The position numbers were made by a program, and so were the translations under genes. Below the pieces are notes generated by a model that searched no databases, had not been told where the DNA came from, and worked only from the letters and a program-made list of their open reading frames with translations. DNA of 45,251 nt, from the sequence record NC_007637.1. One strand, 5' to 3'. The stretch's first letter is position 1, and every line of letters begins with the position of its first letter. Positions 16,435 to 41,142 of this stretch are shown here, in pieces. Source of the stretch: Escherichia phage K1E.

Positions 16435-16470
16435 GCCCTGTCTGCCTTAGTGTAGGCAGGGTCTTTTGCG
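16435..16470 (+). terminator. Candidate hairpin terminator
   Basis: ctgcct-tagtgt-aggcag stem-loop in a GC-rich context, followed by ggtcttttg. Confidence 0.35.
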
Positions 16471-18102: not shown

Positions 18103-19102
18103 GCTTCGCAGCTTGTACAAAGACTCCGAGGTACTTGATGCAATCGAGCAAGCTACCGACGAGAAAGGTAATGTTAATTACAATGAGATGGCACGGATAT
18201 TATCGTGCCACCCTGTGGGTAAGAAGATTACCCGCCAGTTGGCTAGATACTGGCATGGTCAATTCAAGAAGACCAAGAAGAATGGTGATTACTACCAGAC
18301 CCTTCTGCAAGAGGATAAGCGTATCAAGGAAGAGCGTAAGCTCAGGACTCCTGACCGCTACGAGGATTTGGCTATTGTACCATTGCCTGACTCGCCTCAT
18401 CGAAGTGTACTGGTAATCCCTGATACCCATGCACCGTATGAGCACCCAGATACCTTAGAGTTCCTTGCAGCAGTGGCAGCACGTTACCGTCCTGATACGG
18501 TGGTTCATCTTGGAGATGAGGCAGACAAACATGCCTTATCGTTCCACGATTCGGACCCAAATCTGGACAGTGCTGGCATGGAGTTAGAGAAGGCCCGTGT
18601 CTTTATGCATAAATTACACAAGATGTTTCCTGTGATGCGCCTGTGTCATTCTAATCACGGCTCTATGCACTTCCGTAAGGCAAGCGCCAAAGGTATTCCT
18701 GTACAATATCTGCGTACCTATCGTGAAGTCTTCTTTCCGCATGGGGGTGGCGACCAGTGGGATTGGCAGCATACACACGTTCTTGAGTTGCCGAATGGTG
18801 AACAGGTTGCATTTAAGCATCAACCCGCAGGCTCAGTCTTAGCAGATGCAGCGCATGAGCGCATGAACTTAGTGTGCGGTCACTTGCATGGTAAGATGTC
18901 GGTGGAGTATGCACGTAATACACATGAACAGTATTGGGCTGTGCAGGGCGGCTGTTTGATTGATGAGTCATCTCGTGCATTTGCCTATGGTCGTGAGTCC
19001 AAATACAAGCCAGCATTAGGTTGTGTGGTTATTCTGGAGGGTGTGCCGCACATTGTCCCGATGCAGACCAATAGTGACAATCGCTGGATTGGTAAGATTT
19101 AG
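18095..19102 (+). CDS. Calcineurin-like metallophosphoesterase (about 335 aa); start uncertain
   Basis: Motifs VIPDTHAPYEH, HLGDEADKH and CHSNHGS. Track ORF starts at TTG 18062; proposed start is TTG 18095 (AAGGAGG 8 nt upstream); the first in-frame ATG is at 18188. Confidence 0.55.
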   Translation: MGKLRSLYKDSEVLDAIEQATDEKGNVNYNEMARILSCHPVGKKITRQLARYWHGQFKKTKKNGDYYQTLLQEDKRIKEERKLRTPDRYEDLAIVPLPDSPHRSVLVIPDTHAPYEHPDTLEFLAAVAARYRPDTVVHLGDEADKHALSFHDSDPNLDSAGMELEKARVFMHKLHKMFPVMRLCHSNHGSMHFRKASAKGIPVQYLRTYREVFFPHGGGDQWDWQHTHVLELPNGEQVAFKHQPAGSVLADAAHERMNLVCGHLHGKMSVEYARNTHEQYWAVQGGCLIDESSRAFAYGRESKYKPALGCVVILEGVPHIVPMQTNSDNRWIGKI

Positions 19103-19119
19103 TTGACACTATAGAACAA
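19097..19119 (+). promoter_or_regulatory. SP6-type phage promoter (+1 G at 19114)
   Basis: ATTTAGTTGACACTATAGAACAA; overlaps the upstream stop codon. Confidence 0.75.
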
Positions 19120-19169
19120 AGGGTAGGTATTAGCTTACCCTTGATTGTATAGTGAATGGAGGAATTAAT

Positions 19170-19709
19170 ATGTCACAATATGTATGTGAGAAATGCGGCA
19201 ATCGATATGATAACTGCACCTGTGATTATAATAAAGGTAAAAGGATTAAATCAGGTGATTATGTTATACGACGTGCAGGCTGCCGCGACCCAGAGTGGGG
19301 CAGGGTGTGTAAACTATTAGGCAAGAAATCAGATGCAACATTCAAAGTTATAAAGGATGAGTCTGTCGGCAGCGCCATTATACTTGAAGGTATCGAAAAG
19401 CGAGAATGGTATGCACCTTATTTCGAGAGAGTGGCAACCCCACCAGTTGTACCTGAGTCTAATAACTCAAACGATAATATGGTTACGCAACCTAAGCACT
19501 ACGAGTTCTTCGATGGGGTAGAGGCAATCACTATCATTGCTCGTAGTATGACCGAGAAGCAATTTGCTGGATATTGCATGGGTAATGCTTTGAAGTATCG
19601 TCTGCGTGCAGGGAAGAAATTCAACACGGAAGAAGACCTGAAGAAAGCAGACTACTACAAAGAGCTATTCCAGAAGCATCGTCACGAATGTATTGATGAG
19701 GATATTTAA
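19170..19709 (+). CDS. Hypothetical protein with N-terminal Cys cluster (179 aa)
   Basis: Track ORF starts at GTG 19152; first ATG is 19170 with GGAGG upstream; CEKCGNRYDNCTCDY; conserved-looking C-terminal region PKHYEF...KYRLRAGKK. Confidence 0.5.
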   Translation: MSQYVCEKCGNRYDNCTCDYNKGKRIKSGDYVIRRAGCRDPEWGRVCKLLGKKSDATFKVIKDESVGSAIILEGIEKREWYAPYFERVATPPVVPESNNSNDNMVTQPKHYEFFDGVEAITIIARSMTEKQFAGYCMGNALKYRLRAGKKFNTEEDLKKADYYKELFQKHRHECIDEDI

Positions 19710-19710
19710 T

Positions 19711-19884
19711 ATGGAAGGTAAACTGTATAGAGGGTACTTCGGTAACTTATATAAAGTAAGCCCTCGCGGTTTTGTATTGACCTCTGATGATGAAGGTGCA
19801 ATGTGGTTCCTAAGTGCCTATGGTTCTGACTTAGCATACTTTAAAGAGGCAATAGTTAAAGGTGTGATGAAGGAGGTGAAATGA
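19711..19884 (+). CDS. Hypothetical small protein (57 aa)
   Basis: Track ORF starts at TTG 19693; ATG 19711 with GAGGA upstream. Confidence 0.4.
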   Translation: MEGKLYRGYFGNLYKVSPRGFVLTSDDEGAMWFLSAYGSDLAYFKEAIVKGVMKEVK

Positions 19885-20828
19885 ATATCTTCCAATTCCT
19901 AGGTCTTCCAGAAGACCACCGCAATCACCCATTCATGCTGGTGAAACATCGCGGTGAAGTACCTGAGAAGAAATTAACTTTTCCATGTTATGCACAGGTA
20001 AAACGAGATGGTATATTTAGTGCTGTGGTTGTTCGCAACGATGGTGTCGTTGGTGTCTTTGGACGCACTGGAAAGAAACTGGCTAACACGGAAACCTTGG
20101 AAGAATCTTATTCAGCTTTCCCTACTGGCATTTATCTCGGTGAGTTGCAATCTATGGCTATTGATGTCTACCTTGAAGCACTTTCTGGAGTAGTTAACCC
20201 TAACCGCACTGAGCCACTGGATTTCATAGGCCAGCAGATTAAAGACAACCTGTATATTGACTTCTTCGATATGTTAACTATTAAGGCATTCCATGATGGA
20301 TTCACTGATGTTTCTTATCTCAAACGTTACGATGCTTTACATCGTCGCATCGGCGCTCATCTTAGCGGGCACAACGCTATCCTTCCTATTACTCCTTGCC
20401 ATAATGAGCGAGAAGTTGAAGCGTTTGCGCAAGAGCAAATAGATGCAGGCCGAGAGGGTGCTGTGTTCAAACTGGACTGCGATTATGAAGCAGGCCACAA
20501 AGGTTATCGTCAAACTAAGATTGTACGCATGGTGTCTTATGACCTAACCTGTATTGGTTGGGAAGAGGGTAAAGGAAAATACAAGGGTAAGGTTGCTAAC
20601 CTGATCTTTAAATGGAAAGGAGGCAAGTCTGTTAAGGCTATGCTGGGTCGTGGCTGGTCGCATGAGGATGCAGCCCAAATGTATCACGATATTAAACACG
20701 GTGGCGAACTGAACGTCATTGGGAAAATCTTCGCTGTCAAGGCGTTGCAGGAATCTAGCAAGGGAGTCCTGAGACTTCCCAAGGTTTCTGAGTTGCGCCA
20801 CGATAAGGAGGTTCCTGATGTCTATTGA
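19881..20828 (+). CDS. ATP-dependent DNA ligase (315 aa)
   Basis: AAGGAGG RBS; adenylation motif I in AQVKRDGIF (KxDG); GREGAVFK and KGKYKGK stretches consistent with later ligase motifs. Confidence 0.7.
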   Translation: MNIFQFLGLPEDHRNHPFMLVKHRGEVPEKKLTFPCYAQVKRDGIFSAVVVRNDGVVGVFGRTGKKLANTETLEESYSAFPTGIYLGELQSMAIDVYLEALSGVVNPNRTEPLDFIGQQIKDNLYIDFFDMLTIKAFHDGFTDVSYLKRYDALHRRIGAHLSGHNAILPITPCHNEREVEAFAQEQIDAGREGAVFKLDCDYEAGHKGYRQTKIVRMVSYDLTCIGWEEGKGKYKGKVANLIFKWKGGKSVKAMLGRGWSHEDAAQMYHDIKHGGELNVIGKIFAVKALQESSKGVLRLPKVSELRHDKEVPDVY

Positions 20829-20945: not shown

Positions 20946-21143
20946 ATGTCTTTTGATTCTATGAAGGCAACTCGTGCGGTTGAGGTAGCAGAGGCTATCT
21001 TCGAAACTTTATCCTGTGGTATGGAAGTACCATATACTTTACTGGCTGATGCAGAAGAGCTTGGTCTTTCTATAGAGGCCATCCAAGAGAAGGTTGAGGA
21101 ACTCTATGGTACAGACGAAGAAGAAACCGACGATTTCATTTGA
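20946..21143 (+). CDS. Hypothetical acidic protein (65 aa)
   Basis: Track ORF trimmed to ATG 20946 with AAAGGAGG upstream. Confidence 0.45.
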   Translation: MSFDSMKATRAVEVAEAIFETLSCGMEVPYTLLADAEELGLSIEAIQEKVEELYGTDEEETDDFI

Positions 21144-21276
21144 GGGTATGGAGATGCTTGAGATGATTCTCAAGCCTTCTTCTCCGAAGGTGACTAAGAC
21201 TCACGAAGAATTAATCGTAGATGAAGTGAAGCGTTACATAATGGATTGTGTCAGAGCACAACTGGTGGTCCAATGA
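21106..21276 (+). CDS. Hypothetical small protein (56 aa); start uncertain
   Basis: Track ORF starts at TTG 21094; ATG 21106 with GAGGA upstream; overlaps its neighbour. Confidence 0.25.
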   Translation: MVQTKKKPTISFEGMEMLEMILKPSSPKVTKTHEELIVDEVKRYIMDCVRAQLVVQ

Positions 21277-21734
21277 TACGTCCAGCTTCATTCTTAGATA
21301 TTCCTGAGATTATAAACCTTGGGAATAAGTACGTGGAAGAGGAAGTCAAGGTTGTAGCCCATCACTCAGCCTCATGGAATGCAGAACAAAGCGCACATAA
21401 CCTTTGTGCATCTCTTAGTAGAGAAGATTTATTCCTATGGGTGGCTGTAGATGAAGGGCAGATTGTAGGTTTTCTGTGGGCCGGCTATCATGAGTTAGCC
21501 CCTTGGACACCTGTAAGAGTTGCATCTGACATTCTCTTTTATATTGTACCAGAGAAGCGAGGGACACTGCTCGGTATGCGCCTCATCAAAGCCTTGAAGC
21601 AATGGGCTAATGATAGTGGGTGTTCCGAGGTCCGCCTGTCTATCGCTTCTGGTATTAATGAAGAACGTGTCGGACGTATGTATAAGCGACTTGGCTTTGA
21701 ACAGTTTGGCACTGTGTATAACCTGAAGTTCTAA
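21273..21734 (+). CDS. GNAT-family N-acetyltransferase (153 aa)
   Basis: Track ORF trimmed to ATG 21273 (ATGA overlap); acetyl-CoA-binding-like stretch QIVGFLW...EKRGTLLGMRLIKAL. Confidence 0.55.
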   Translation: MIRPASFLDIPEIINLGNKYVEEEVKVVAHHSASWNAEQSAHNLCASLSREDLFLWVAVDEGQIVGFLWAGYHELAPWTPVRVASDILFYIVPEKRGTLLGMRLIKALKQWANDSGCSEVRLSIASGINEERVGRMYKRLGFEQFGTVYNLKF

Positions 21735-21743
21735 GGAGATCAC

Positions 21744-21953
21744 ATGGGTATTGTAAAGAAAGCATTTAAGGCTGTCGGTCTTGCTCAAGATGCACCGCGT
21801 ATTGAAGCCAAGGTTCCTGCTCAGCAGCTTGAGCGTAAGCCTGAGACTGAAGCTGAAGATATACAGATTGGTGCAGGTGGTGATGATGCGACTGCATCTG
21901 CAAAAGGTAAGCGCGGGCTTGTCCGTCCGGTAGCTTCTAGCTTGAAGGTGTAA
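21744..21953 (+). CDS. Hypothetical small virion-associated protein (69 aa)
   Basis: AAGGAGA RBS; immediately upstream of the portal gene; basic Gly-rich C-terminus. Confidence 0.4.
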   Translation: MGIVKKAFKAVGLAQDAPRIEAKVPAQQLERKPETEAEDIQIGAGGDDATASAKGKRGLVRPVASSLKV

Positions 21954-21954
21954 T

Positions 21955-23505
21955 ATGAAACAGAGCACAGATTTGGAGTATGGAGGTAAGCGGTCTAAGA
22001 TACCTAAGCTATGGGAGAAGTTCTCCACTAAACGTAGCTCTTTCCTTGATAGGGCGAAGCATTACTCCAAATTAACCTTGCCCTATCTGATGAATGACAA
22101 AGGTGATAACGAGACTTCGCAGAACGGATGGCAAGGTGTAGGTGCTCAGGCAACTAACCACCTAGCCAACAAGCTAGCGCAAGTGCTATTCCCTGCACAG
22201 CGCTCCTTCTTCCGTGTAGACCTAACTGCACAAGGTGAGAAGGTTCTTAATCAGCGTGGCCTGAAGAAGACAGAGCTAGCTACTATCTTTGCTCAAGTGG
22301 AAACACGGGCAATGAAAGAGTTAGAGCAACGTCAATTCCGGCCTGCTGTAGTAGAAGCATTCAAGCATCTTATTGTTGCTGGTAGCTGTATGCTATACAA
22401 GCCAAGCAAAGGTGCAATCAGTGCAATCCCAATGCATCACTATGTAGTTAATCGTGACACTAATGGCGACCTGTTAGACATTATCTTACTGCAAGAAAAA
22501 TCCTTGCGTACATTTGACCCTGCTACACGTGCTGTAGTAGAGGTTGGCTTGAAAGGTAAGAAATGCAAGGAAGATGACAGCATTAAGCTGTACACACATG
22601 CTAAGTATCTTGGTGAGGGTTTTTGGGAACTCAAGCAATCTGCTGATGATATCCCTGTTGGTAAGGTAAGTAAAATCAAATCAGAAAAGCTACCATTTAT
22701 CCCGCTAACTTGGAAGCGAAGCTATGGTGAGGATTGGGGTCGTCCTTTAGCAGAGGATTACTCCGGTGATTTATTCGTTATCCAATTCTTATCTGAAGCA
22801 GTTGCCCGTGGTGCTGCACTGATGGCAGACATTAAGTACCTGATTCGTCCGGGTGCTCAGACTGATGTTGACCACTTTGTTAACTCTGGCACTGGTGAGG
22901 TTGTCACTGGTGTAGAAGAAGATATCCATATTGTACAGTTAGGTAAGTACGCAGACCTCACACCTATTAGCGCGGTTCTAGAGGTATACACTCGCCGTAT
23001 CGGTGTAGTCTTCATGATGGAGACAATGACACGTCGTGACGCTGAACGTGTTACTGCTGTAGAAATCCAGCGAGATGCGTTAGAAATTGAGCAGAACATG
23101 GGTGGTGTATATTCCCTCTTTGCTACTACTATGCAATCGCCAGTAGCGATGTGGGGTCTGCTGGAGGCAGGAGACTCCTTCACTAGTGACCTAGTGGACC
23201 CTGTGATTATCACAGGTATTGAAGCTTTAGGACGCATGGCTGAGTTGGATAAACTGGCAAACTTTGCTCAGTACATGTCACTGCCATTACAATGGCCTGA
23301 GCCTGTACTAGCTGCTGTGAAATGGCCTGACTATATGGATTGGGTACGAGGTCAAATCTCTGCTGAACTGCCGTTCCTTAAATCGGCTGAAGAGATGGAA
23401 CAAGAACAGGAAGCACAGATGCAAGCACAGCAAGCACAGATGCTTGAAGAAGGTGTGGCTAAGGCCGTGCCGGGTGTAATTCAACAAGAACTTAAGGAGG
23501 CGTAA
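21955..23505 (+). CDS. Portal (head-tail connector) protein (516 aa)
   Basis: WQGVGAQATNHLANKL and RVTAVEIQRDALEIEQNMGGVYS parallel T7 gp8 (WQAVGARGLNNLASKL; RVTAEEIRYVASELE...GGVYS). Confidence 0.85.
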   Translation: MKQSTDLEYGGKRSKIPKLWEKFSTKRSSFLDRAKHYSKLTLPYLMNDKGDNETSQNGWQGVGAQATNHLANKLAQVLFPAQRSFFRVDLTAQGEKVLNQRGLKKTELATIFAQVETRAMKELEQRQFRPAVVEAFKHLIVAGSCMLYKPSKGAISAIPMHHYVVNRDTNGDLLDIILLQEKSLRTFDPATRAVVEVGLKGKKCKEDDSIKLYTHAKYLGEGFWELKQSADDIPVGKVSKIKSEKLPFIPLTWKRSYGEDWGRPLAEDYSGDLFVIQFLSEAVARGAALMADIKYLIRPGAQTDVDHFVNSGTGEVVTGVEEDIHIVQLGKYADLTPISAVLEVYTRRIGVVFMMETMTRRDAERVTAVEIQRDALEIEQNMGGVYSLFATTMQSPVAMWGLLEAGDSFTSDLVDPVIITGIEALGRMAELDKLANFAQYMSLPLQWPEPVLAAVKWPDYMDWVRGQISAELPFLKSAEEMEQEQEAQMQAQQAQMLEEGVAKAVPGVIQQELKEA

Positions 23506-24430: not shown

Positions 24431-24453
24431 ATTTACTGGACACTATAGAAGGG
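24431..24453 (+). promoter_or_regulatory. SP6-type phage promoter for the major capsid gene (+1 G at 24448)
   Basis: ATTTACTGGACACTATAGAAGGG; the transcript would start with hairpin gggaga-aatg-tctccc (24451..24466). Confidence 0.8.
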
Positions 24454-25704: not shown

Positions 25705-25712
25705 TACCTATG

Positions 25713-25748
25713 CCCTATCTACCTTGCGTAGGTAGGGTTCTTTTTGTT
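25713..25748 (+). terminator. Hairpin terminator after the major capsid gene
   Basis: ccctatcta-ccttgcg-taggtaggg (9-bp stem with one G-U pair) followed by ttctttttgtt. Confidence 0.6.
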
Positions 25749-25758
25749 AGGAGGATTC

Positions 25759-26496
25759 ATGCCTGTAATTAGACAAACCAGTAAAGTAGGACATATGATG
25801 GAAGATGTGGCCTTCCAGATTATTGATAGTAAGCTGGAAGCGGTAAACTTGTGTATGCGAGCTATTGGTCGTGAGGGTGTGGATTCTCTCGACTCAGGTG
25901 ACTTGGACGCAGAAGATGCAAGCAAGATGATCGACATCGTATCCCAGCGATTCCAGTACAACAAAGGAGGTGGCTGGTGGTTCAATCGTGAACCAAACTG
26001 GCAGATTGCACCTGATACCAATGGTGAAGTCAATCTACCTAACAACTGCCTAGCAGTATTGCAGTGTTATGCTTTGGGTGAGAAGAAAGTACCCATGACT
26101 ATGCGAGCAGGTAAGCTCTACTCTACATGGAGTCATACCTTTGATATGCGTAAGCATGTGAATGCTAATGGTATGATTCGTCTTACCTTACTTACCTTAC
26201 TTCCATATGAGCATCTACCTACTAGTGTAATGCAGGCTATTGCCTATCAAGCTGCTGTAGAGTTTATTGTGTCTAAGGATGCAGATCAGACTAAGCTAGC
26301 CACTGCACAGCAGATTGCCACTCAGCTTCTAATGGATGTGCAATCAGAACAAATGTCACAAAAGCGATTGAATATGCTTGTACATAATCCTACGCAGCGT
26401 CAGTTCGGTATTATGGCAGGTGGTTCTCAGAATGTACCTGCTTACTCTCATTCACCATATGACAGTTGGGCACTTCGTCCGTGGGAGGATCGTTAA
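25759..26496 (+). CDS. Tail tubular protein A (T7 gp11-like, 245 aa)
   Basis: Track ORF trimmed to ATG 25759 (AGGAGG upstream); ...IGREGVDSLDSGDLDAEDASKMIDIVSQRFQYNKGGGWWFN resembles T7 gp11. Confidence 0.7.
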   Translation: MPVIRQTSKVGHMMEDVAFQIIDSKLEAVNLCMRAIGREGVDSLDSGDLDAEDASKMIDIVSQRFQYNKGGGWWFNREPNWQIAPDTNGEVNLPNNCLAVLQCYALGEKKVPMTMRAGKLYSTWSHTFDMRKHVNANGMIRLTLLTLLPYEHLPTSVMQAIAYQAAVEFIVSKDADQTKLATAQQIATQLLMDVQSEQMSQKRLNMLVHNPTQRQFGIMAGGSQNVPAYSHSPYDSWALRPWEDR

Positions 26497-28898
26497 TGGA
26501 AGTACAAGGTTCATTAGGGAGGCAAATCCAAGGGATTAGCCAGCAACCTCCAGCGGTACGTCTTGATGGTCAATGTACGACTATGGTGAACATGGTCCCT
26601 GATGTAGTGAATGGAACTCAATCCCGCATGGGTACAACTCACATTGCTAAGCTCTTGGATGAAGGTACAGATAATATGGCAACGCACCATTATCGCAGGG
26701 GTGAGGGGGATGAAGAGTATTTCTTCACCTTAAAGAAGGGGCAAGTGCCAGAGATATTTGATAAGCATGGACGCAAGTGCAATGTCATCTCTCAAGATGC
26801 ACCTATGACCTACCTTTCTGAAGTTGTTAACCCTAGGGAAGATGTGCAATTCATGACTATAGCTGATGTTACTTTTATGCTTAACCGTAGGAAAGTGGTT
26901 AAAGTTAGTAATAGGAAGTCACCTAAAGTTGGAGATAAAGCCATTGTGTTTTGTGCATATGGTCAATACGGTACATCTTATTCTATCATAATTAATGGAA
27001 CTACAGCTGCTAGTTTTAAAACACCAGATGGGGGAAGTGCAGAACATGTTGAACAAATACGAACGGAACGTATCACTTCTGAATTGTACTCCAAGTTGCA
27101 GCAATGGAGTGGTGTGAATGACTATGAAATACAAAGAGATGGTACGAGCATATTTATAGAGAGACGCGATGGTAAAAGTTTCACAGTAACAACTACCGAT
27201 GGTGCAAAAGGTAAGGACTTAGTGGCTATCAAGAATAAAGTTAGCTCTACTGACCTACTCCCTTCTCGTGCGCCTGCTGGTTATAAAGTACAAGTGTGGC
27301 CTACTGGCAGCAAACCTGAGTCTCGTTACTGGCTGCAAGCTGAGCCTAAAGAGGGAAACCTTGTGTCTTGGAAAGAAACAATAGCTGCTGATGTATTACT
27401 TGGGTTTGATAAAGGCACAATGCCTTACATTATTGAACGTACAGGTATCATCGACGGCATAGCTCAATTCAAGATAAGACAAGGTGATTGGGAAGATCGT
27501 AAAGTAGGGGATGACTTGACTAACCCTATGCCCTCTTTTATTGATGAGGAAGTACCCCAGACAATAGGTGGAATGTTCATGGTGCAGAACCGCCTATGCT
27601 TTACAGCAGGTGAAGCGGTTATTGCTTCTCGTACATCATACTTCTTCGATTTCTTTCGTTATACGGTTATCTCTGCATTGGCAACTGACCCATTTGATAT
27701 TTTCTCAGATGCGAGTGAAGTCTACCAGCTAAAACATGCAGTGACCTTAGATGGCGCTACCGTATTGTTCTCTGATAAGTCACAATTCATACTGCCAGGA
27801 GATAAGCCTTTAGAGAAGTCAAATGCATTGCTTAAGCCTGTTACAACATTTGAAGTGAACAATAAAGTGAAGCCAGTAGTAACTGGTGAATCGGTAATGT
27901 TTGCCACTAATGATGGTTCTTACTCTGGTGTACGAGAGTTCTATACGGACTCTTATAGTGACACTAAGAAGGCACAAGCAATCACAAGTCATGTGAATAA
28001 ACTCATCGAAGGTAACATTACCAACATGGCAGCAAGCACCAATGTCAATAGGCTACTTGTCACTACTGATAAGTATCGTAACATAATTTACTGCTATGAT
28101 TGGTTATGGCAAGGTACAGACCGTGTACAATCAGCATGGCATGTATGGGAGTGGCCTATGGGTACAAAGGTGCGAGGTATGTTTTATTCTGGTGAATTAC
28201 TTTATCTACTCCTTGAGCGAGGCGATGGCGTCTATCTGGAGAAGATGGACATGGGTGATGCACTAACCTATGGTTTGAATGACCGCATCAGAATGGATAG
28301 GCAAGCAGAGTTGATCTTCAAGCATTTTAAAGCAGAAGATGAATGGATATCTGAACCACTTCCTTGGACTCCTACTAACCCAGAACTTTTGGATTGCATC
28401 TTAATAGAAGGGTGGGATTCATATATTGGAGGTTCTTTCCTGTTCAAATATAAACCTAGTGATAACACCTTGTCTACAACCTTTGACATGCATGATGATA
28501 ACCACGTAAAAGCGAAGGTTATTGTTGGTCAGATTTACCCTCAAGAGTTTGAACCTACACCTGTAGTTATCAGAGATAGGCAAGACCGTGTATCCTATAT
28601 TGATGTACCTGTTGTGGGGTTGGTTCACCTTAATCTTGATATGTATCCTGATTTCTCCGTGGAAGTTAAGAATGTGAAGAGTGGTAAAGTACGCAGGGTG
28701 CTAGCGTCAAACCGTATAGGTGGTGCTCTCAACAACACAGTAGGTTATGTTGAACCAAGGGAGGGTGTCTTCAGATTCCCACTGAGGGCTAAGAGTACGG
28801 ATGCTGTTTATCGTATTATTGTAGAATCACCTCATACATTCCAGCTTCGCGATATTGAGTGGGAAGGGAGCTACAATCCAACCAAAAGGAGGGTCTAA
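26496..28898 (+). CDS. Tail tubular protein B (T7 gp12-like, 800 aa)
   Basis: Track ORF trimmed to ATG 26496 (TAATG overlap, GGGAGG upstream); GISQQP motif near the N-terminus as in T7 gp12. Confidence 0.8.
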   Translation: MEVQGSLGRQIQGISQQPPAVRLDGQCTTMVNMVPDVVNGTQSRMGTTHIAKLLDEGTDNMATHHYRRGEGDEEYFFTLKKGQVPEIFDKHGRKCNVISQDAPMTYLSEVVNPREDVQFMTIADVTFMLNRRKVVKVSNRKSPKVGDKAIVFCAYGQYGTSYSIIINGTTAASFKTPDGGSAEHVEQIRTERITSELYSKLQQWSGVNDYEIQRDGTSIFIERRDGKSFTVTTTDGAKGKDLVAIKNKVSSTDLLPSRAPAGYKVQVWPTGSKPESRYWLQAEPKEGNLVSWKETIAADVLLGFDKGTMPYIIERTGIIDGIAQFKIRQGDWEDRKVGDDLTNPMPSFIDEEVPQTIGGMFMVQNRLCFTAGEAVIASRTSYFFDFFRYTVISALATDPFDIFSDASEVYQLKHAVTLDGATVLFSDKSQFILPGDKPLEKSNALLKPVTTFEVNNKVKPVVTGESVMFATNDGSYSGVREFYTDSYSDTKKAQAITSHVNKLIEGNITNMAASTNVNRLLVTTDKYRNIIYCYDWLWQGTDRVQSAWHVWEWPMGTKVRGMFYSGELLYLLLERGDGVYLEKMDMGDALTYGLNDRIRMDRQAELIFKHFKAEDEWISEPLPWTPTNPELLDCILIEGWDSYIGGSFLFKYKPSDNTLSTTFDMHDDNHVKAKVIVGQIYPQEFEPTPVVIRDRQDRVSYIDVPVVGLVHLNLDMYPDFSVEVKNVKSGKVRRVLASNRIGGALNNTVGYVEPREGVFRFPLRAKSTDAVYRIIVESPHTFQLRDIEWEGSYNPTKRRV

Positions 28899-29620
28899 TG
28901 GCTATAGGTTCAGCCGTTATGGCTGGTATGTCTTCTATTGGTAGCATGTTTGCAGGCAGTGGTGCAGCAGCCGCTGCTGGAGGTGCTGCCGCAGGTGGCG
29001 GAGGTTTGCTAGGTTCACTAGGTGGATTCCTAAGTGGCTCCACTGCTGGTTTCTCTAATGCTGGCCTTCTTGGTGCTGGCCTTCAAGGGTTAGGCTTGAT
29101 TGGTGATCTATTTGGTGGAAGTGATGAAGCCAAGGCGATGAAGAAAGCACAAGAAGAGCAATGGCGGCAGCAGCTTATTGCTACACAAGAGGCGTACAAG
29201 ACAGTGGCAGACGCAGAACGTTCTGCTGCTAAACAATATCATGCAGATGCAATCAGTAATCAGGCTTCACTGCTACAGCAGCGAGCACAGGTTGCATTAC
29301 TTGCTGGGGCTACTGGTACTGGTGGTAATTCTGTGTCCTCTATGCTTAATGACTTAGCAGCAGATGGCGGCAGGAACCAGAGTACCATCATTGATAACTA
29401 TGAGAATCAGAAGATTAATTTCACCAACCAACTTAAGTCTATCCAACGTGGTGGTCAGATGCAGATGCGTGAGTTTAAGAAGCCTTCTGCTATGAGTACC
29501 TTGGTTCAAGGTATTCCAAGTCTGGCATCTGCCTATGTAACTGGTAGTAAGTCTGGCAAGGCATTGGGTAAAGCCTTAACTGATTCTCGTACATATTCAT
29601 CTGGAACAAGAGGTATTTAA
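28898..29620 (+). CDS. Internal virion protein, Gly/Ala-rich (240 aa)
   Basis: Track ORF trimmed to ATG 28898 (TAATG overlap, AAAGGAGGG upstream); position matches the T7 gp13/gp14 region. Confidence 0.55.
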   Translation: MAIGSAVMAGMSSIGSMFAGSGAAAAAGGAAAGGGGLLGSLGGFLSGSTAGFSNAGLLGAGLQGLGLIGDLFGGSDEAKAMKKAQEEQWRQQLIATQEAYKTVADAERSAAKQYHADAISNQASLLQQRAQVALLAGATGTGGNSVSSMLNDLAADGGRNQSTIIDNYENQKINFTNQLKSIQRGGQMQMREFKKPSAMSTLVQGIPSLASAYVTGSKSGKALGKALTDSRTYSSGTRGI

Positions 29621-40198: not shown

Positions 40199-40477
40199 AT
40201 GTCTAATAGTTATAGTACACAACCTCTTACAGGTAAGTCTGCTCGTAAGCAGATACAACCTGTTAGTGAAGCCCTTATGCTTCCTGTAGTTTACGAGGAC
40301 ACTGTTGAGAAGAAAGGTGATGTTATTAATGATGCCACCAAATCAGGTAAGCAGAAAGGGGCCATGGTGTGTCTTGATACACATGATAACCTGGTTATTG
40401 CTATCGCAGTTGATGGCAAAGAAGATTCCAATTGGTTGACAGCTAATAAAGCGGTCACTACTATTACCCCAGCTTAA
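40199..40477 (+). CDS. Hypothetical protein (92 aa), paralog of the next gene
   Basis: ATG 40199 preceded by AGGA plus a (GA)9 run; shares SGKQKGAMV and overall layout with the 40490 product. Confidence 0.55.
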   Translation: MSNSYSTQPLTGKSARKQIQPVSEALMLPVVYEDTVEKKGDVINDATKSGKQKGAMVCLDTHDNLVIAIAVDGKEDSNWLTANKAVTTITPA

Positions 40478-40489
40478 GAGGAGAGTTAC

Positions 40490-40777
40490 ATGTCTAAATA
40501 TGGAACCGCAGGTACTGTTACTGGTCAGGCTTTTCGAGTAAAAACTGTACAAACCACTGCAACGGCAATCCCTTTGCCTATTGTTGCTGAAGCAGACCTT
40601 AAGAAGAAAGATCATCCTATCAACATTAAACACCTCTCTGGTAAACAGAAAGGTGCCATGGTTGCTGTAGAGAAAACAGACCAATCCTTGTACATCGCTA
40701 TTGCACGTGGGAGTGAACCCACCGACAAGTGGGATGCAACTACTATGGAGTTGGACCCTGTAACACCTGCGGCTTAA
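40490..40777 (+). CDS. Hypothetical protein (95 aa), paralog of the previous gene
   Basis: AGGAGAG RBS; shared motifs LSGKQKGAMVAV and IAIA. Confidence 0.55.
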   Translation: MSKYGTAGTVTGQAFRVKTVQTTATAIPLPIVAEADLKKKDHPINIKHLSGKQKGAMVAVEKTDQSLYIAIARGSEPTDKWDATTMELDPVTPAA

Positions 40778-40797
40778 TTGTAAAGACGAGGTCAATA

Positions 40798-41142
40798 GTG
40801 CTTAACAAACACTTCAAGCGCCGTGAGTTCGCTTGCCGTTGTGGGTGCGGTACATCCACAGTAGATGCTGAGTTACTACAGGTAGTCACAGATGTACGTG
40901 AGCACTTTGGTGCTCCTGTAGTTATTACTTCTGGACACCGCTGTGCTAAGCACAATGCTAATGTGGGAGGTGCTAAGAACTCCATGCATCTTACTGGTAA
41001 GGCTGCTGACATTAAGGTACAAGGTATTACACCTTACCGTGTATGGTCCTATCTAACAGCACGCTACCCCAATAAATATGGCATTGGGTCTTATCCTAAT
41101 TTCACCCACATTGATGTAAGAGAGGGATGTGCACGATGGTAA
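40798..41142 (+). CDS. Endolysin, zinc peptidase M15-like (114 aa from GTG start)
   Basis: VVITSGHRCAKHNANVGGAKNSMHLTGKAADI...FTHIDV fits the M15 zinc-binding pattern. Track ORF starts at GTG 40729 inside the upstream gene; proposed start is GTG 40798 with GAGG upstream. Confidence 0.6.
   Translation: MLNKHFKRREFACRCGCGTSTVDAELLQVVTDVREHFGAPVVITSGHRCAKHNANVGGAKNSMHLTGKAADIKVQGITPYRVWSYLTARYPNKYGIGSYPNFTHIDVREGCARW

What the first reader, a model, noticed from the sequence alone, without database searches (positions are those of the whole stretch)
21273..21734. GNAT acetyltransferase between the replication and structural modules
The acetyl-CoA-binding-like motif is recognisable. GNAT enzymes in phages can modify host proteins, antibiotics or small molecules, and T7 itself has none.
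Basis: partly seen in the sequence, partly recalled or inferred. Interest (0 to 1): 0.4.

Follow-up and report, generated by a model that had tools for sequence, protein, structure and literature searches.

The report
Conserved phage GNAT acetyltransferase gene
The stretch is a real, well-conserved acetyltransferase gene of a K1E/SP6-like coliphage that public records already annotate; its substrate is unknown, and phage T7 carries a stripped-down relative of the same fold at the same genome position.

Summary
Observation confirmed. Window 21273-21734 (+) is a 153-aa ORF. It passes three Pfam GNAT models and PHROG 1249 'acetyltransferase' (2.5e-54). Its AlphaFold model (pLDDT 95.4) has the canonical GNAT topology and matches 848 PDB GNAT chains. 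Ka/Ks is 0.03-0.08.

The window is a Vectrevirus (K1E-like). The protein is 100% identical to annotated 'putative acetyltransferase' proteins, so the gene itself is already known. No experimental function was found.

What I add:
- The gene keeps one slot, GNAT, then a gp7.3-like small protein, then portal, in all 29 related viral loci and in 5 other relatives checked.
- LUZ19 Rac, the only characterised phage GNAT of this kind, sits in the same slot.
- More distant members of the family sit at the head of internal-virion-protein operons, in SIO1 and in metagenomic phage contigs.

Best reading: an active acetyl-CoA-dependent N-acetyltransferase made with the head and tail genes. It most likely acts on protein amino groups, with virion/ejection proteins the leading candidates. 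Rac-like host takeover and polyamine acetylation are live rivals. Antibiotic-resistance identities are rejected.

The parts
21273..21734 (+). GNAT N-acetyltransferase CDS (153 aa), member of PHROG 1249
   Evidence: 100% identical to the mutPK1A2 and vB_EcoP_C 'putative acetyltransferase'. Ka/Ks 0.03-0.08.
21543..21575 (+). Motif A: end of strand b4 and the b4-a3 pyrophosphate-binding loop (residues 91-101, IVPEKRGTLLG)
   Evidence: Conservation in 71 relatives: P93 66/71, R96 70/71, G97 62/71, G/A101 64/71. Position in the model taken.
21666..21698 (+). Motif B: helix a4 with the predicted catalytic Tyr137 (residues 132-142, RVGRMYKRLGF)
   Evidence: Y137 is Tyr in 56/71 and Phe in 8/71; G141 70/71. 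Y137 aligns with the catalytic Y128 of Dpa (PMC10267138) and with the 'LYK' Tyr of SSAT2.
21094..21276 (+). Upstream small ORF (60 aa, PHROG 6507, unknown function). Its TGA overlaps the GNAT ATG (ATGA).
   Evidence: Conserved next to the GNAT in Vectrevirus and SP6-like loci.
21744..21953 (+). gp7.3-like small virion/tail-assembly protein (69 aa). It starts 9 nt after the GNAT stop and has its own GGAG ribosome-binding site.
   Evidence: PHROG 1320 'host range and adsorption protein' 3.9e-11. Lys-rich 'MGIVKKAFKAV' N-terminus like T7 gp7.3 'MGKKVKKAVKKV'. Present after the GNAT in all 29 viral loci.
21955..23505 (+). Portal (head-tail connector), first large structural gene of the same transcription unit
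19881..20828 (+). DNA ligase, last recognisable DNA-metabolism gene upstream (marks the module boundary)
19097..19114 (+). Phage-RNAP promoter (ATTTAGTTGACACTATAG). Nearest promoter upstream of the GNAT.
   Evidence: 14 matches against 0.57 expected. No promoter match lies between 19114 and 24431.
24431..24448 (+). Next phage promoter (ATTTACTGGACACTATAG), just before the major capsid gene
25712..25738 (+). Terminator-like hairpin after the major capsid gene (counterpart of T7 Tphi)
   Evidence: 11-bp stem followed by a T-run.

Best explanation
Window 21273-21734 encodes a genuine, catalytically equipped GCN5-related N-acetyltransferase that is a near-universal gene of SP6/K1E-like podophages.

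Shown:
- It has the full GNAT fold, a conserved acetyl-CoA loop (P93, R96, G97, G101) and the motif B tyrosine (Y137).
- It is under strong purifying selection.
- No phage promoter match separates it from ligase upstream or from the gp7.3-like, portal and scaffold genes downstream.
- Its start codon overlaps the stop of the preceding ORF.
- It occupies the 'gene 7 slot' that also holds LUZ19 Rac and T7 gp7.

Inferred mechanism: the enzyme binds acetyl-CoA across the b4-a3 loop and transfers the acetyl group to a primary amine held in a pocket lined by the near-invariant acidic residues D9, E23 and D86. Y137 would protonate the leaving CoA thiolate.

Inferred target: protein amino groups, either Lys epsilon or N-terminal alpha, rather than antibiotics. 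The leading candidates are the small Lys-rich ejected or tail-assembly proteins and internal virion proteins encoded beside it. Acetylation of these would tune particle assembly or infectivity, giving a 'host-range'-type phenotype like T7 gene 7.

My probabilities: real GNAT enzyme about 0.9; protein substrate of any kind about 0.5-0.55; virion/ejection-protein target about 0.3.
For: Identity as a GNAT.

Purifying selection.

Prevalence: near-universal in the clade, with 135 phage records carrying a GNAT >=60% identical against 145 with a portal >=60% identical.

Operon context.

Fixed synteny, GNAT then gp7.3-like then portal, is seen in:
- 29/29 IMG/VR loci, the metagenomic loci L005-L008 and ECBP5;
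- the Rac family: LUZ19, KNP, Henninger, phiB1_1, MR8, Axy23 and LIMEzero;
- JG068, per PMC3765740.

Links between the slot-7 families:
- Window family against Rac family, hhalign probability 96.2%, E 2e-9, 121 columns.
- PHROG 1249 is Rac's only second PHROG hit.
- T7 gp7 family against Rac family, probability 88%, E 3e-6.
- T7 gp7 has a GNAT fold.

Link to virion proteins:
- PHROG 1249 members in SIO1, L009, L060 and L061 sit between the tail tube B/'tail appendage' gene and 'internal virion protein' genes.
- Hardies et al. call that position the IVP-A assembly-protein slot (PMC4819975).
- The gp7.3-like neighbours share a Lys-rich MGKK..KKA.K N-terminus.
- T7 gene 7 is annotated 'host range'.
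Against: - No substrate is shown for this protein or any relative. Even for Rac no acetylated peptide was found.
- Gene adjacency in a T7-like genome partly reflects timing rather than function.
- The family's best sequence-profile match to a solved structure is a polyamine acetyltransferase, Dpa, at 1e-12. Rac's best is thialysine/SSAT. This points at small amines as much as at proteins.
- Fold neighbours span every substrate class.
- The relation to Rac is no closer than GNAT-superfamily level by sequence. BLASTP gives E 4.7, and the window protein does not hit PHROG 3986.
- The Hardies claim that T7 gp13 is GNAT-like could not be reproduced here.
- Phages with both a slot-7 GNAT and gp13 exist, for example KNP, so the GNAT is not simply a displaced IVP-A.
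Confidence: 0.45

Rival explanations
1. Rac-like host takeover. The enzyme acetylates host proteins at the middle-to-late switch and so shuts down host functions. [quoted passage not shown]
For: - Same genomic slot, and profile-level homology to Rac.
- The Rac phenotype needs its predicted acetyl-CoA pocket (PMC7552054).
- Timing fits, because the gene is transcribed by the phage RNAP before and with late genes.
Against: - The alpha-cleavage is genus-specific. LKA1 has a GNAT in the same place and leaves alpha intact.
- Rac had no effect on growth in P. putida.
- The window protein lacks the Rac family's invariant D-x-H-V-G motif and has a full C-terminal a4-b6-b7 that Rac and gp7 appear to lack.
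- Family members in marine Zobellviridae phages sit inside the tail/IVP block, which is an odd place for a host shut-off gene.
Confidence: 0.2
2. Polyamine or small-amine acetyltransferase. The enzyme neutralises putrescine, cadaverine or spermidine during DNA replication and packaging. This would either tune DNA condensation or counter polyamine accumulation that inhibits phage replication.
For: - The family profile's best PDB hit is the polyamine acetyltransferase Dpa (8a9o, E 1.1e-12, full length). SSAT2 also scores at 1e-8.
- The Rac family's best hits are thialysine acetyltransferase and SSAT1.
- D86 and Y137 align with Dpa D80 and catalytic Y128, and Y20 aligns with Y21 (PMC10267138).
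- The near-invariant acidic residues D9, E23 and D86 suit a cationic substrate.
- Polyamines inhibit phage replication in P. aeruginosa (10.1101/2022.04.01.486733).
Against: - Only 3 of Dpa's 7 active-centre residues are kept. D81, E116, Y25 and Y65 are not.
- The similarity is 50 bits, which is superfamily-level and no equivalog.
- E. coli already has SpeG.
- It does not explain why the gene is glued to virion-protein genes in two different slots.
Confidence: 0.22
3. Anti-defence enzyme. It would inactivate a host immune protein by acetylation, as AcrVA5 does to Cas12a, or detoxify an antiphage small molecule such as an aminoglycoside.
For: - The AcrVA5 precedent, from my own knowledge and cited in PMC7552054.
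- Weak partial NCBIfam matches to AAC(6') models.
Against: - The gene is a near-universal, syntenic, slowly turning-over gene across phages of Escherichia, Salmonella, Klebsiella, Proteus, Erwinia, Vibrio, Pseudomonas and Roseobacter. Anti-defence genes are usually patchy accessory genes in early regions.
- PADLOC gives no meaningful hit.
- AAC(6') scores are 13-30 bits against cut-offs of 140-325.
Confidence: 0.07
4. Antibiotic or herbicide-type resistance enzyme (phosphinothricin/methionine-sulfoximine, arsinothricin or aminoglycoside acetyltransferase) carried as a moron.
For: PDB sequence hits to PA4866 and phosphinothricin N-acetyltransferases at E 7e-5 to 1e-3, and NCBIfam ArsN1 at 30 bits.
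Against: - All NCBIfam equivalog scores are far below their cut-offs: ArsN1a 30.4 against 170, AAC_6p_group_E 29.7 against 140, RimI 25.6 against 86.4.
- The gene is a core gene of strictly lytic phages, which have no reason to protect the host.
Confidence: 0.03
5. Non-catalytic assembly factor. The GNAT fold would serve only as a scaffold or chaperone for small virion proteins, as may be true of T7 gp7.
For: T7 gp7 keeps the fold but loses the motif A loop conservation and helix a4. This shows the slot tolerates a non-canonical protein.
Against: In the window's family the acetyl-CoA loop residues and Y137 are among the most conserved positions. That is not expected if catalysis were dispensable.
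Confidence: 0.05

Closest known systems
Annotated 'acetyltransferase' of Vectrevirus/Zindervirus phages (K1E, K1-5, mutPK1A2, SP6 and relatives); PHROG 1249
   Same: It is this gene. It is 100% identical to the mutPK1A2 and vB_EcoP_C protein and 75% identical to SP6, with the same length and the same neighbours.
   Different: Nothing differs. No function is published for any member in the literature I could search.
LUZ19 Rac (gp28), PHROG 3986, phiKMV-like and Ghunavirus phages
   Same: - GNAT-fold gene in the same slot, directly upstream of a small virion protein and the portal.
- Profile-profile probability 96%, E 2e-9.
- Made at the middle/late boundary.
   Different: - No pairwise similarity.
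- Rac has its own invariant D-x-H-V-G motif and a short C-terminus that aligns with the b5-b6 hairpin of T7 gp7 rather than with a4-b6-b7.
- Rac's RpoA-cleavage phenotype is specific to Phikmvvirus.
T7 gp7 ('host range'), PHROG 2746
   Different: - 133 aa with no Pfam GNAT hit.
- No a4 or catalytic Tyr, and the motif A loop is not conserved and is partly deleted in Berlinvirus.
- Only marginal similarity to the window family: probability 34%, E 4e-4.
IVP-A-slot acetyltransferases of SIO1/VpV262-like podophages (Hardies et al. 2016), and T7 gp13
   Same: The SIO1 protein and the metagenomic relatives are in the same PHROG 1249 (2e-36, 5e-37). They have the same length and Pfam hits.
   Different: - They lie after tail tube B, at the head of the internal-virion-protein operon, not before the portal.
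- T7 gp13 (Pfam Phage_T7_Gp13) itself shows no detectable similarity to the window family here.
Polyamine acetyltransferases Dpa (8a9o) and SSAT1/2
   Same: Best profile match to solved structures. The catalytic Tyr and the b4 Asp align.
   Different: About 20% identity. Four of seven Dpa active-centre residues are not kept. Oligomeric state and the b-strand swap are unknown for the phage protein.
AcrVA5 (GNAT anti-CRISPR)
   Same: A mobile-element-encoded (prophage-region) GNAT that acetylates a protein lysine. This rests on my own knowledge and on the citation in PMC7552054.
   Different: Not compared by sequence here. AcrVA5 is a patchy accessory gene of prophages, whereas this gene is a syntenic core gene of lytic podophages.

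Membership tests
GNAT superfamily (Pfam Acetyltransf_1 / _7 / _10) | Profile score above the curated gathering cut-off | tested here: met
   41.1 against 20.7, 39.0 against 27, and 26.4 against 23.6 bits.
GNAT superfamily | Mixed alpha/beta fold b1-a1-a2-b2-b3-b4-a3-b5-a4-b6(-b7) | tested here: met
   AF2 model with pLDDT 95.4 and exactly this order. 848 PDB chains match at E<=1e-3, and all 50 listed are GNAT/N-acetyltransferase entries, TM up to 0.81.
GNAT superfamily | Motif A pyrophosphate loop Q/R-x-x-G-x-G/A after b4 | tested here: inconclusive
   The sequence is R96-G97-T98-L99-L100-G101. R, G97 and G/A101 are conserved (70/71, 62/71, 64/71), but the central Gly is L/R/A in this family. 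The loop is present but the textbook pattern is not strictly met.
GNAT superfamily | Catalytic Tyr (general acid) in a4 / motif B | tested here: met
   Y137 is Tyr in 56/71 relatives. It aligns with Dpa Y128 and the SSAT2 'LYK' Tyr.
GNAT superfamily | Binds acetyl-CoA and transfers acetyl to an amine | not testable with these tools
   Needs biochemistry.
PHROG 1249 (phage 'acetyltransferase') | Full-length profile match | tested here: met
   E 2.5e-54, residues 1-151 on profile positions 9-155 of 180.
Rac family (LUZ19 gp28; PHROG 3986) | Sequence membership in the family profile | tested here: not met
   The window protein does not hit PHROG 3986 at E<=0.01. BLASTP against Rac gives E 4.7. 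Only profile-profile similarity is seen, at probability 96%.
Rac family | Invariant D-x-H-V-G motif in the b3-b4 region | tested here: not met
   Rac alignment invariants are D76, H78, V79, G80. The window has 'HELAPWTPVRVASD' there.
Rac family | Slot directly upstream of a small virion protein and the portal | tested here: met
Rac family | Induces cleavage of host RNAP alpha subunit | not testable with these tools
   Needs infection or expression experiments. It is genus-specific even among Rac homologues.
T7 gp7 family (PHROG 2746) | Sequence membership | tested here: not met
   hhalign of the window family against the gp7 family gives probability 34%, E 4e-4 over 76 columns. No PHROG 2746 hit.
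Aminoglycoside 6'-N-acetyltransferases (NCBIfam AAC_6p models) | Score above the equivalog cut-off | tested here: not met
   The best is 29.7 bits against a cut-off of 140. The others are 13-21 against 225-325.
Phosphinothricin / arsinothricin N-acetyltransferases (ArsN1, PAT) | Score above the equivalog cut-off | tested here: not met
   ArsN1a 30.4 against 170; ArsN1b 26.9 against 210.
RimI (ribosomal protein S18 alanine N-acetyltransferase) | Score above the equivalog cut-off | tested here: not met
   TIGR01575 scores 25.6 against 86.4.
Polyamine acetyltransferases (Dpa/SSAT type) | Acidic substrate pocket residues (Dpa Y21, Y25, Y65, D80, D81, E116) plus catalytic Tyr | tested here: inconclusive
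   Three of seven are kept: Y20, D86 and Y137. D81, E116, Y25 and Y65 are not (PMC10267138). The family has other invariant acidic residues, D9 and E23.
Known anti-phage defence / GNAT toxin components (PADLOC) | Match to any PADLOC model | tested here: not met
   Only PDC-M11A at E 0.036, 10.9 bits.

The most novel reading that the evidence does not exclude
The gene is one branch of an old GNAT-fold lineage that belongs to the virion-assembly/ejection apparatus of T7-supergroup and related podophages. That lineage would have three forms:
- full enzymes in SP6-like phages and in the IVP-A slot of SIO1-like phages;
- truncated but still acetyl-CoA-dependent Rac in phiKMV-like and Ghunavirus phages;
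- a catalytically eroded relic in T7, gp7, the unexplained 'host range' gene.

Its ancestral job would be acetylation of the small Lys-rich ejected proteins (gp7.3/IVP-B class), or of host proteins met on entry. Rac's host-RNAP effect would then be a derived side branch.
Probability: 0.3. Interest if true: 0.55.

Novelty: already known. Interest (0 to 1): 0.3.

Why it matters
As a gene call it changes nothing, because databases already name it an acetyltransferase.

It matters modestly for three reasons.

1. A catalytically intact GNAT is kept in essentially every SP6/K1E-like phage, a group used for therapy and capsule-depolymerase work. Nobody knows what it acetylates.

2. The slot analysis ties together three proteins that have been treated separately: this enzyme, LUZ19 Rac and T7 gp7. 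It also gives T7 gene 7, a gene annotated only as 'host range' whose biochemical role I found no account of, a fold and a testable hypothesis.

3. The association with ejected and internal virion protein genes in two different genome positions suggests that post-translational acetylation, or polyamine neutralisation, is part of podophage particle biology. That would be a new theme if shown.

Tried and rejected
**Searches that led nowhere**
- The search for related loci with the 71-sequence alignment failed because the alignment was too diverse. I redid it with 9 closer sequences.
- The search for homologous proteins with Rac returned only one protein. I built the Rac family from GenBank phage records instead.
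- Literature searches found no experimental work on the SP6-like GNAT, no report that T7 gp7 is GNAT-like, and no phage GNAT anti-defence paper matching my terms.
- Two searches failed on term syntax.

**Ideas tested and rejected**
- T7 gp13 as a relative of the window family. hhalign gave probability 0.4-1.4% and Pfam gives only Phage_T7_Gp13. The Hardies HHpred claim therefore stays a literature claim.
- The slot-7 GNAT as a displaced IVP-A that replaces gp13. LUZ19 and Vectrevirus lack gp13, but KNP has both. There is no strict complementarity.
- Resistance-enzyme identities (AAC(6'), ArsN1/PAT, RimI, MshD). All are far below their equivalog cut-offs.
- Defence or toxin components. PADLOC gave nothing.
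- A role in K1 capsule (polysialic acid) O-acetylation. The gene is equally conserved in phages of Salmonella, Klebsiella, Proteus, Vibrio and Pseudomonas, and it is a soluble N-acetyltransferase fold.

**Limits**
- Fold neighbours as a guide to substrate were uninformative. Naa60, PAT/BAR, Dpa, AAC(6') and ArsN all score alike.
- BFVD did not return T7 gp7 or gp13 among the top 50.
Full report
**1. What is there**

Window 21273-21734 (+) is an ORF of 153 codons. The ATG is at 21273 and the TAA at 21732-21734. The ATG overlaps the TGA of the preceding 60-codon ORF (ATGA, 21273-21276). A longer TTG start at 21246 exists, but every homologue is about 153 aa and begins MIR.

The antisense ORF 21495-22028 listed by the ORF finder has no support, and I treat it as chance.

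The window is a Vectrevirus (Autographiviridae, Molineuxvirinae; K1E/K1-5/SP6-like). The surrounding 25 kb is 95-96% identical to phages vB_EcoP_R and mutPK1A2. The protein is 100% identical to the 'putative acetyltransferase' of mutPK1A2 and vB_EcoP_C.

**2. Is it a GNAT?**

Yes, by every test available.

- **Profiles.** Three Pfam GNAT models score above their gathering cut-offs: 41.1 against 20.7, 39.0 against 27, and 26.4 against 23.6 bits. PHROG 1249 'acetyltransferase' matches end to end at E 2.5e-54.
- **Structure.** An AlphaFold2 model built on 71 diverse relatives has pLDDT 95.4 and pTM 0.90. Its order of elements is the canonical b1-a1-a2-b2-b3-b4-a3-b5-a4-b6-b7. Foldseek finds 848 PDB chains at E<=1e-3, and all 50 listed matches are GNAT/N-acetyltransferase entries. 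It also finds 190 viral GNAT models in BFVD.
- **Conserved residues.** The most conserved positions across the 71 relatives are those a working enzyme needs:
  - P93, R96, G97 and G/A101 in the b4-a3 acetyl-CoA loop;
  - Y137 in 'LYxxLGF' (Tyr in 56/71);
  - G141 and G146;
  - three acidic residues, D9, E23 and D86.
- **One deviation.** The loop is R-G-T-L-L-G, so the central glycine of the textbook R-x-x-G-x-G/A is missing in this family.
- **Selection.** Ka/Ks against relatives is 0.03-0.08 wherever Ks is unsaturated.

**3. Context in the window**

Matches to the phage promoter consensus (ATTTACyGGACACTATAG) number 14, against 0.57 expected. One lies at 19097 and the next at 24431. None lies between them.

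Strong terminator-like hairpins lie at 16435 and 25712.

By this scan the GNAT therefore shares a transcription unit with these genes:
- a gp1.7-like gene;
- ligase;
- three small ORFs;
- the gp7.3-like gene (21744-21953, PHROG 1320 'host range and adsorption protein');
- portal;
- scaffold.

**4. Distribution and synteny**

- tblastn finds the protein in 248 phage records. Identity is 75% in SP6, 62-73% in Klebsiella and Proteus SP6-likes, 30-44% in Pectobacterium, Erwinia, Vibrio, P. syringae, Ralstonia, Marinomonas and Yersinia podophages, and 28% in roseophage SIO1.
- 145 records have a portal >=60% identical to the window's, and 135 have a GNAT >=60% identical. The gene is close to universal in the SP6-like clade. 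It diverges faster than the portal, for example 75% against 87% and 40% against 58%.
- An exhaustive search of 1.8 billion cluster representatives gives 255 clusters at E<=1e-10 and 2899 at E<=1e-3, nearly all about 150 aa.
- In all 29 IMG/VR loci recovered, the order is GNAT, then a gp7.3-like small ORF, then portal, then scaffold. The same order holds in two independent metagenomic relatives at 33-37% identity, each seen on two contigs (L005/L006 and L007/L008), and in phage ECBP5.

**5. The same slot in other Autographiviridae**

*LUZ19 Rac.* The only functionally studied phage GNAT of this kind is LUZ19 Rac (gp28). [quoted passage not shown] Mutating its predicted acetyl-CoA pocket abolishes the effect. 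No direct substrate was found, and the effect is confined to Phikmvvirus (PMC7552054).

Rac lies directly upstream of a small virion protein and the portal. Every Rac homologue I fetched does the same:
- KNP and Henninger (Ghunavirus, Studiervirinae);
- phiB1_1, MR8 and Axy23 (Krylovirinae);
- LIMEzero.

JG068 gp29 does too, according to PMC3765740.

Pairwise, the window protein and Rac are unrelated (BLASTP E 4.7). Profile against profile they align over 121 columns at probability 96.2%, E 2e-9. PHROG 1249 is Rac's only PHROG hit besides its own family. That level of similarity is what any two GNAT families might show. I therefore call them positional counterparts with the same fold, not demonstrated orthologues.

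*T7 gp7.* In Ghunavirus the Rac-type gene sits between the gp6.7-like and gp7.3-like genes. That is exactly where T7 has gene 7 ('host range').

- T7 gp7 gives no Pfam hit.
- BLASTP against KNP gp32 gives E 2e-4.
- A 33-sequence gp7 alignment matches the Rac family at probability 88%, E 3e-6 over 100 collinear columns.
- It matches the window family marginally, at probability 34%, E 4e-4.
- Its AlphaFold2 model (pLDDT 93.9, pTM 0.86) is b1-a1-a2-b2-b3-b4-a3-b5-b6.

So gp7 is a GNAT fold without helix a4 and its tyrosine. Its motif A loop is not conserved and is partly deleted in Berlinvirus. It is probably not a canonical enzyme.

**6. A second slot**

The SIO1 homologue belongs to PHROG 1249 at E 2e-36, and the metagenomic relative on L009 does so at 5e-37. 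On L060 and L061, contigs carrying more distant family representatives, the gene directly downstream of the GNAT is an 'internal virion protein' (PHROG 418). None of these four lies upstream of a portal. In SIO1 and L009 the GNAT follows the tail tube B/'tail appendage' gene.

Hardies et al. described this position in phiRIO-1/SIO1-like phages as the counterpart of T7 IVP-A (gp13). They describe gp13 as a non-virion assembly protein that matches acetyltransferases by HHpred (PMC4819975). I could not reproduce a gp13-GNAT link with the shallow alignments I could build.

Vectrevirus and LUZ19 have no gp13-like gene after tail tube B. KNP has both a slot-7 GNAT and gp13, so the two are not simply alternatives.

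What remains is that this GNAT family is found in two places, and both are the 5' edge of a block of ejected or internal virion protein genes. The gp7.3-like neighbours share a Lys-rich N-terminus from T7 to the window (MGKKVKKAVKK and MGIVKKAFKAV).

**7. What does it acetylate?**

This is unknown, and the tools cannot show it.

- **Resistance enzymes.** NCBIfam equivalog models for AAC(6'), ArsN1, RimI and MshD all fail by wide margins. PADLOC is empty. I reject antibiotic-resistance and defence-toxin identities.
- **Fold neighbours.** They cover N-terminal acetyltransferases, PAT/BAR, polyamine and aminoglycoside enzymes about equally.
- **Profile against PDB sequences.** The family's best match is the A. 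baumannii polyamine acetyltransferase Dpa (E 1.1e-12). The Rac family's best is thialysine acetyltransferase/SSAT1.
- **Dpa active centre.** In the Dpa alignment, Y137 aligns with the catalytic Y128, D86 with D80 and Y20 with Y21. The other four Dpa active-centre residues are not kept (PMC10267138).

A cationic amine substrate is likely given D9, E23 and D86. Whether it is a lysine, a protein N-terminus or a free polyamine is open.

Polyamines matter to phages in both directions. They aid packaging, and they inhibit replication in P. aeruginosa. The polyamine reading is therefore a serious rival.

**8. Verdict**

- The gene is ordinary as an annotation, with an unknown substrate.
- I commit to an active acetyl-CoA-dependent N-acetyltransferase (about 0.9). 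I favour protein amino groups as the substrate (about 0.5) and virion/ejection proteins as the leading target (about 0.3).
- The rivals are Rac-like host takeover (about 0.2) and polyamine acetylation (about 0.22).
- The most useful by-product is that T7 gp7, LUZ19 Rac and this enzyme share a fold and a genome slot.

Noticed in passing
[not shown]
   Followed up: yes
window 21744-21953; also T7 gp7.3 (L003:2536-2835), KNP gp33, MR8 gp36, L007:5458-5730: The small proteins encoded right after the slot-7 GNAT share a Lys-rich 'MGKK(I/V)KKA(V/F)K' N-terminus and a 'G(K/R)(K/R)(S/G)L...(I/L)N(I/V)'-type C-terminus across subfamilies. They are candidate acetylation targets. Not tested.
   Followed up: partly
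window 26466-29620: There is no room for a gp13 (IVP-A)-like gene between tail tube B (26466-28898) and the IVP-B-like ORF (28859-29620, PHROG 805). LUZ19 also lacks one, while T7 and KNP have one.
   Followed up: partly
L028:3974-4435 (SIO1), L009:1263-1712, L060:147-599, L061:248-718: Relatives of the window GNAT lie after the tail tube B/'tail appendage' gene and before internal virion protein genes, not before the portal (SIO1 and L009 confirmed as PHROG 1249). This is a second conserved slot for the family.
   Followed up: yes
window 40199-40477 and 40490-40777: Two tandem paralogous ORFs (92 and 95 aa) match PHROG 2725, labelled 'acetyl-CoA acetyltransferase'. They cover only positions 4-100 of a 238-position profile and have no Pfam domain. 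The label, also used for K1E gp42 in PMC4837284, looks unreliable. They lie just upstream of the Peptidase_M15 endolysin (40729-41142).
   Followed up: partly
window 2779, 6824, 7008, 9342, 10190, 13925, 14694, 15932, 19097, 24431, 40033, 41717 (+ strand): A set of phage-RNAP promoter-like sites with consensus ATTTACyGGACACTATAG (14 matches against 0.57 expected). Strong terminator-like hairpins lie at 16435-16462 and 25712-25738.
   Followed up: partly
window 19152-19709: A 185-aa ORF with an N-terminal Cys-rich stretch (CEKCGNRYDNCTC) and a C-terminal domain in PHROG 1689/2585 'nucleotide kinase'. It is annotated 'similar to T7 gp1.7' in mutPK1A2 and is the first gene after the 19097 promoter.
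   Followed up: no
window 21273-21734 against 21955-23505, across L039-L058: The GNAT diverges faster than the adjacent portal in the same genomes (for example 75% against 87%, 67% against 71%, 40% against 58% identity), although Ka/Ks stays low.
   Followed up: no
window 21156-21175: An 8-bp hairpin (GCTTGAGA-TGAT-TCTCAAGC) followed by a pyrimidine-rich run lies inside the ORF just upstream of the GNAT. The terminator scan flagged it. It is probably chance.
   Followed up: no
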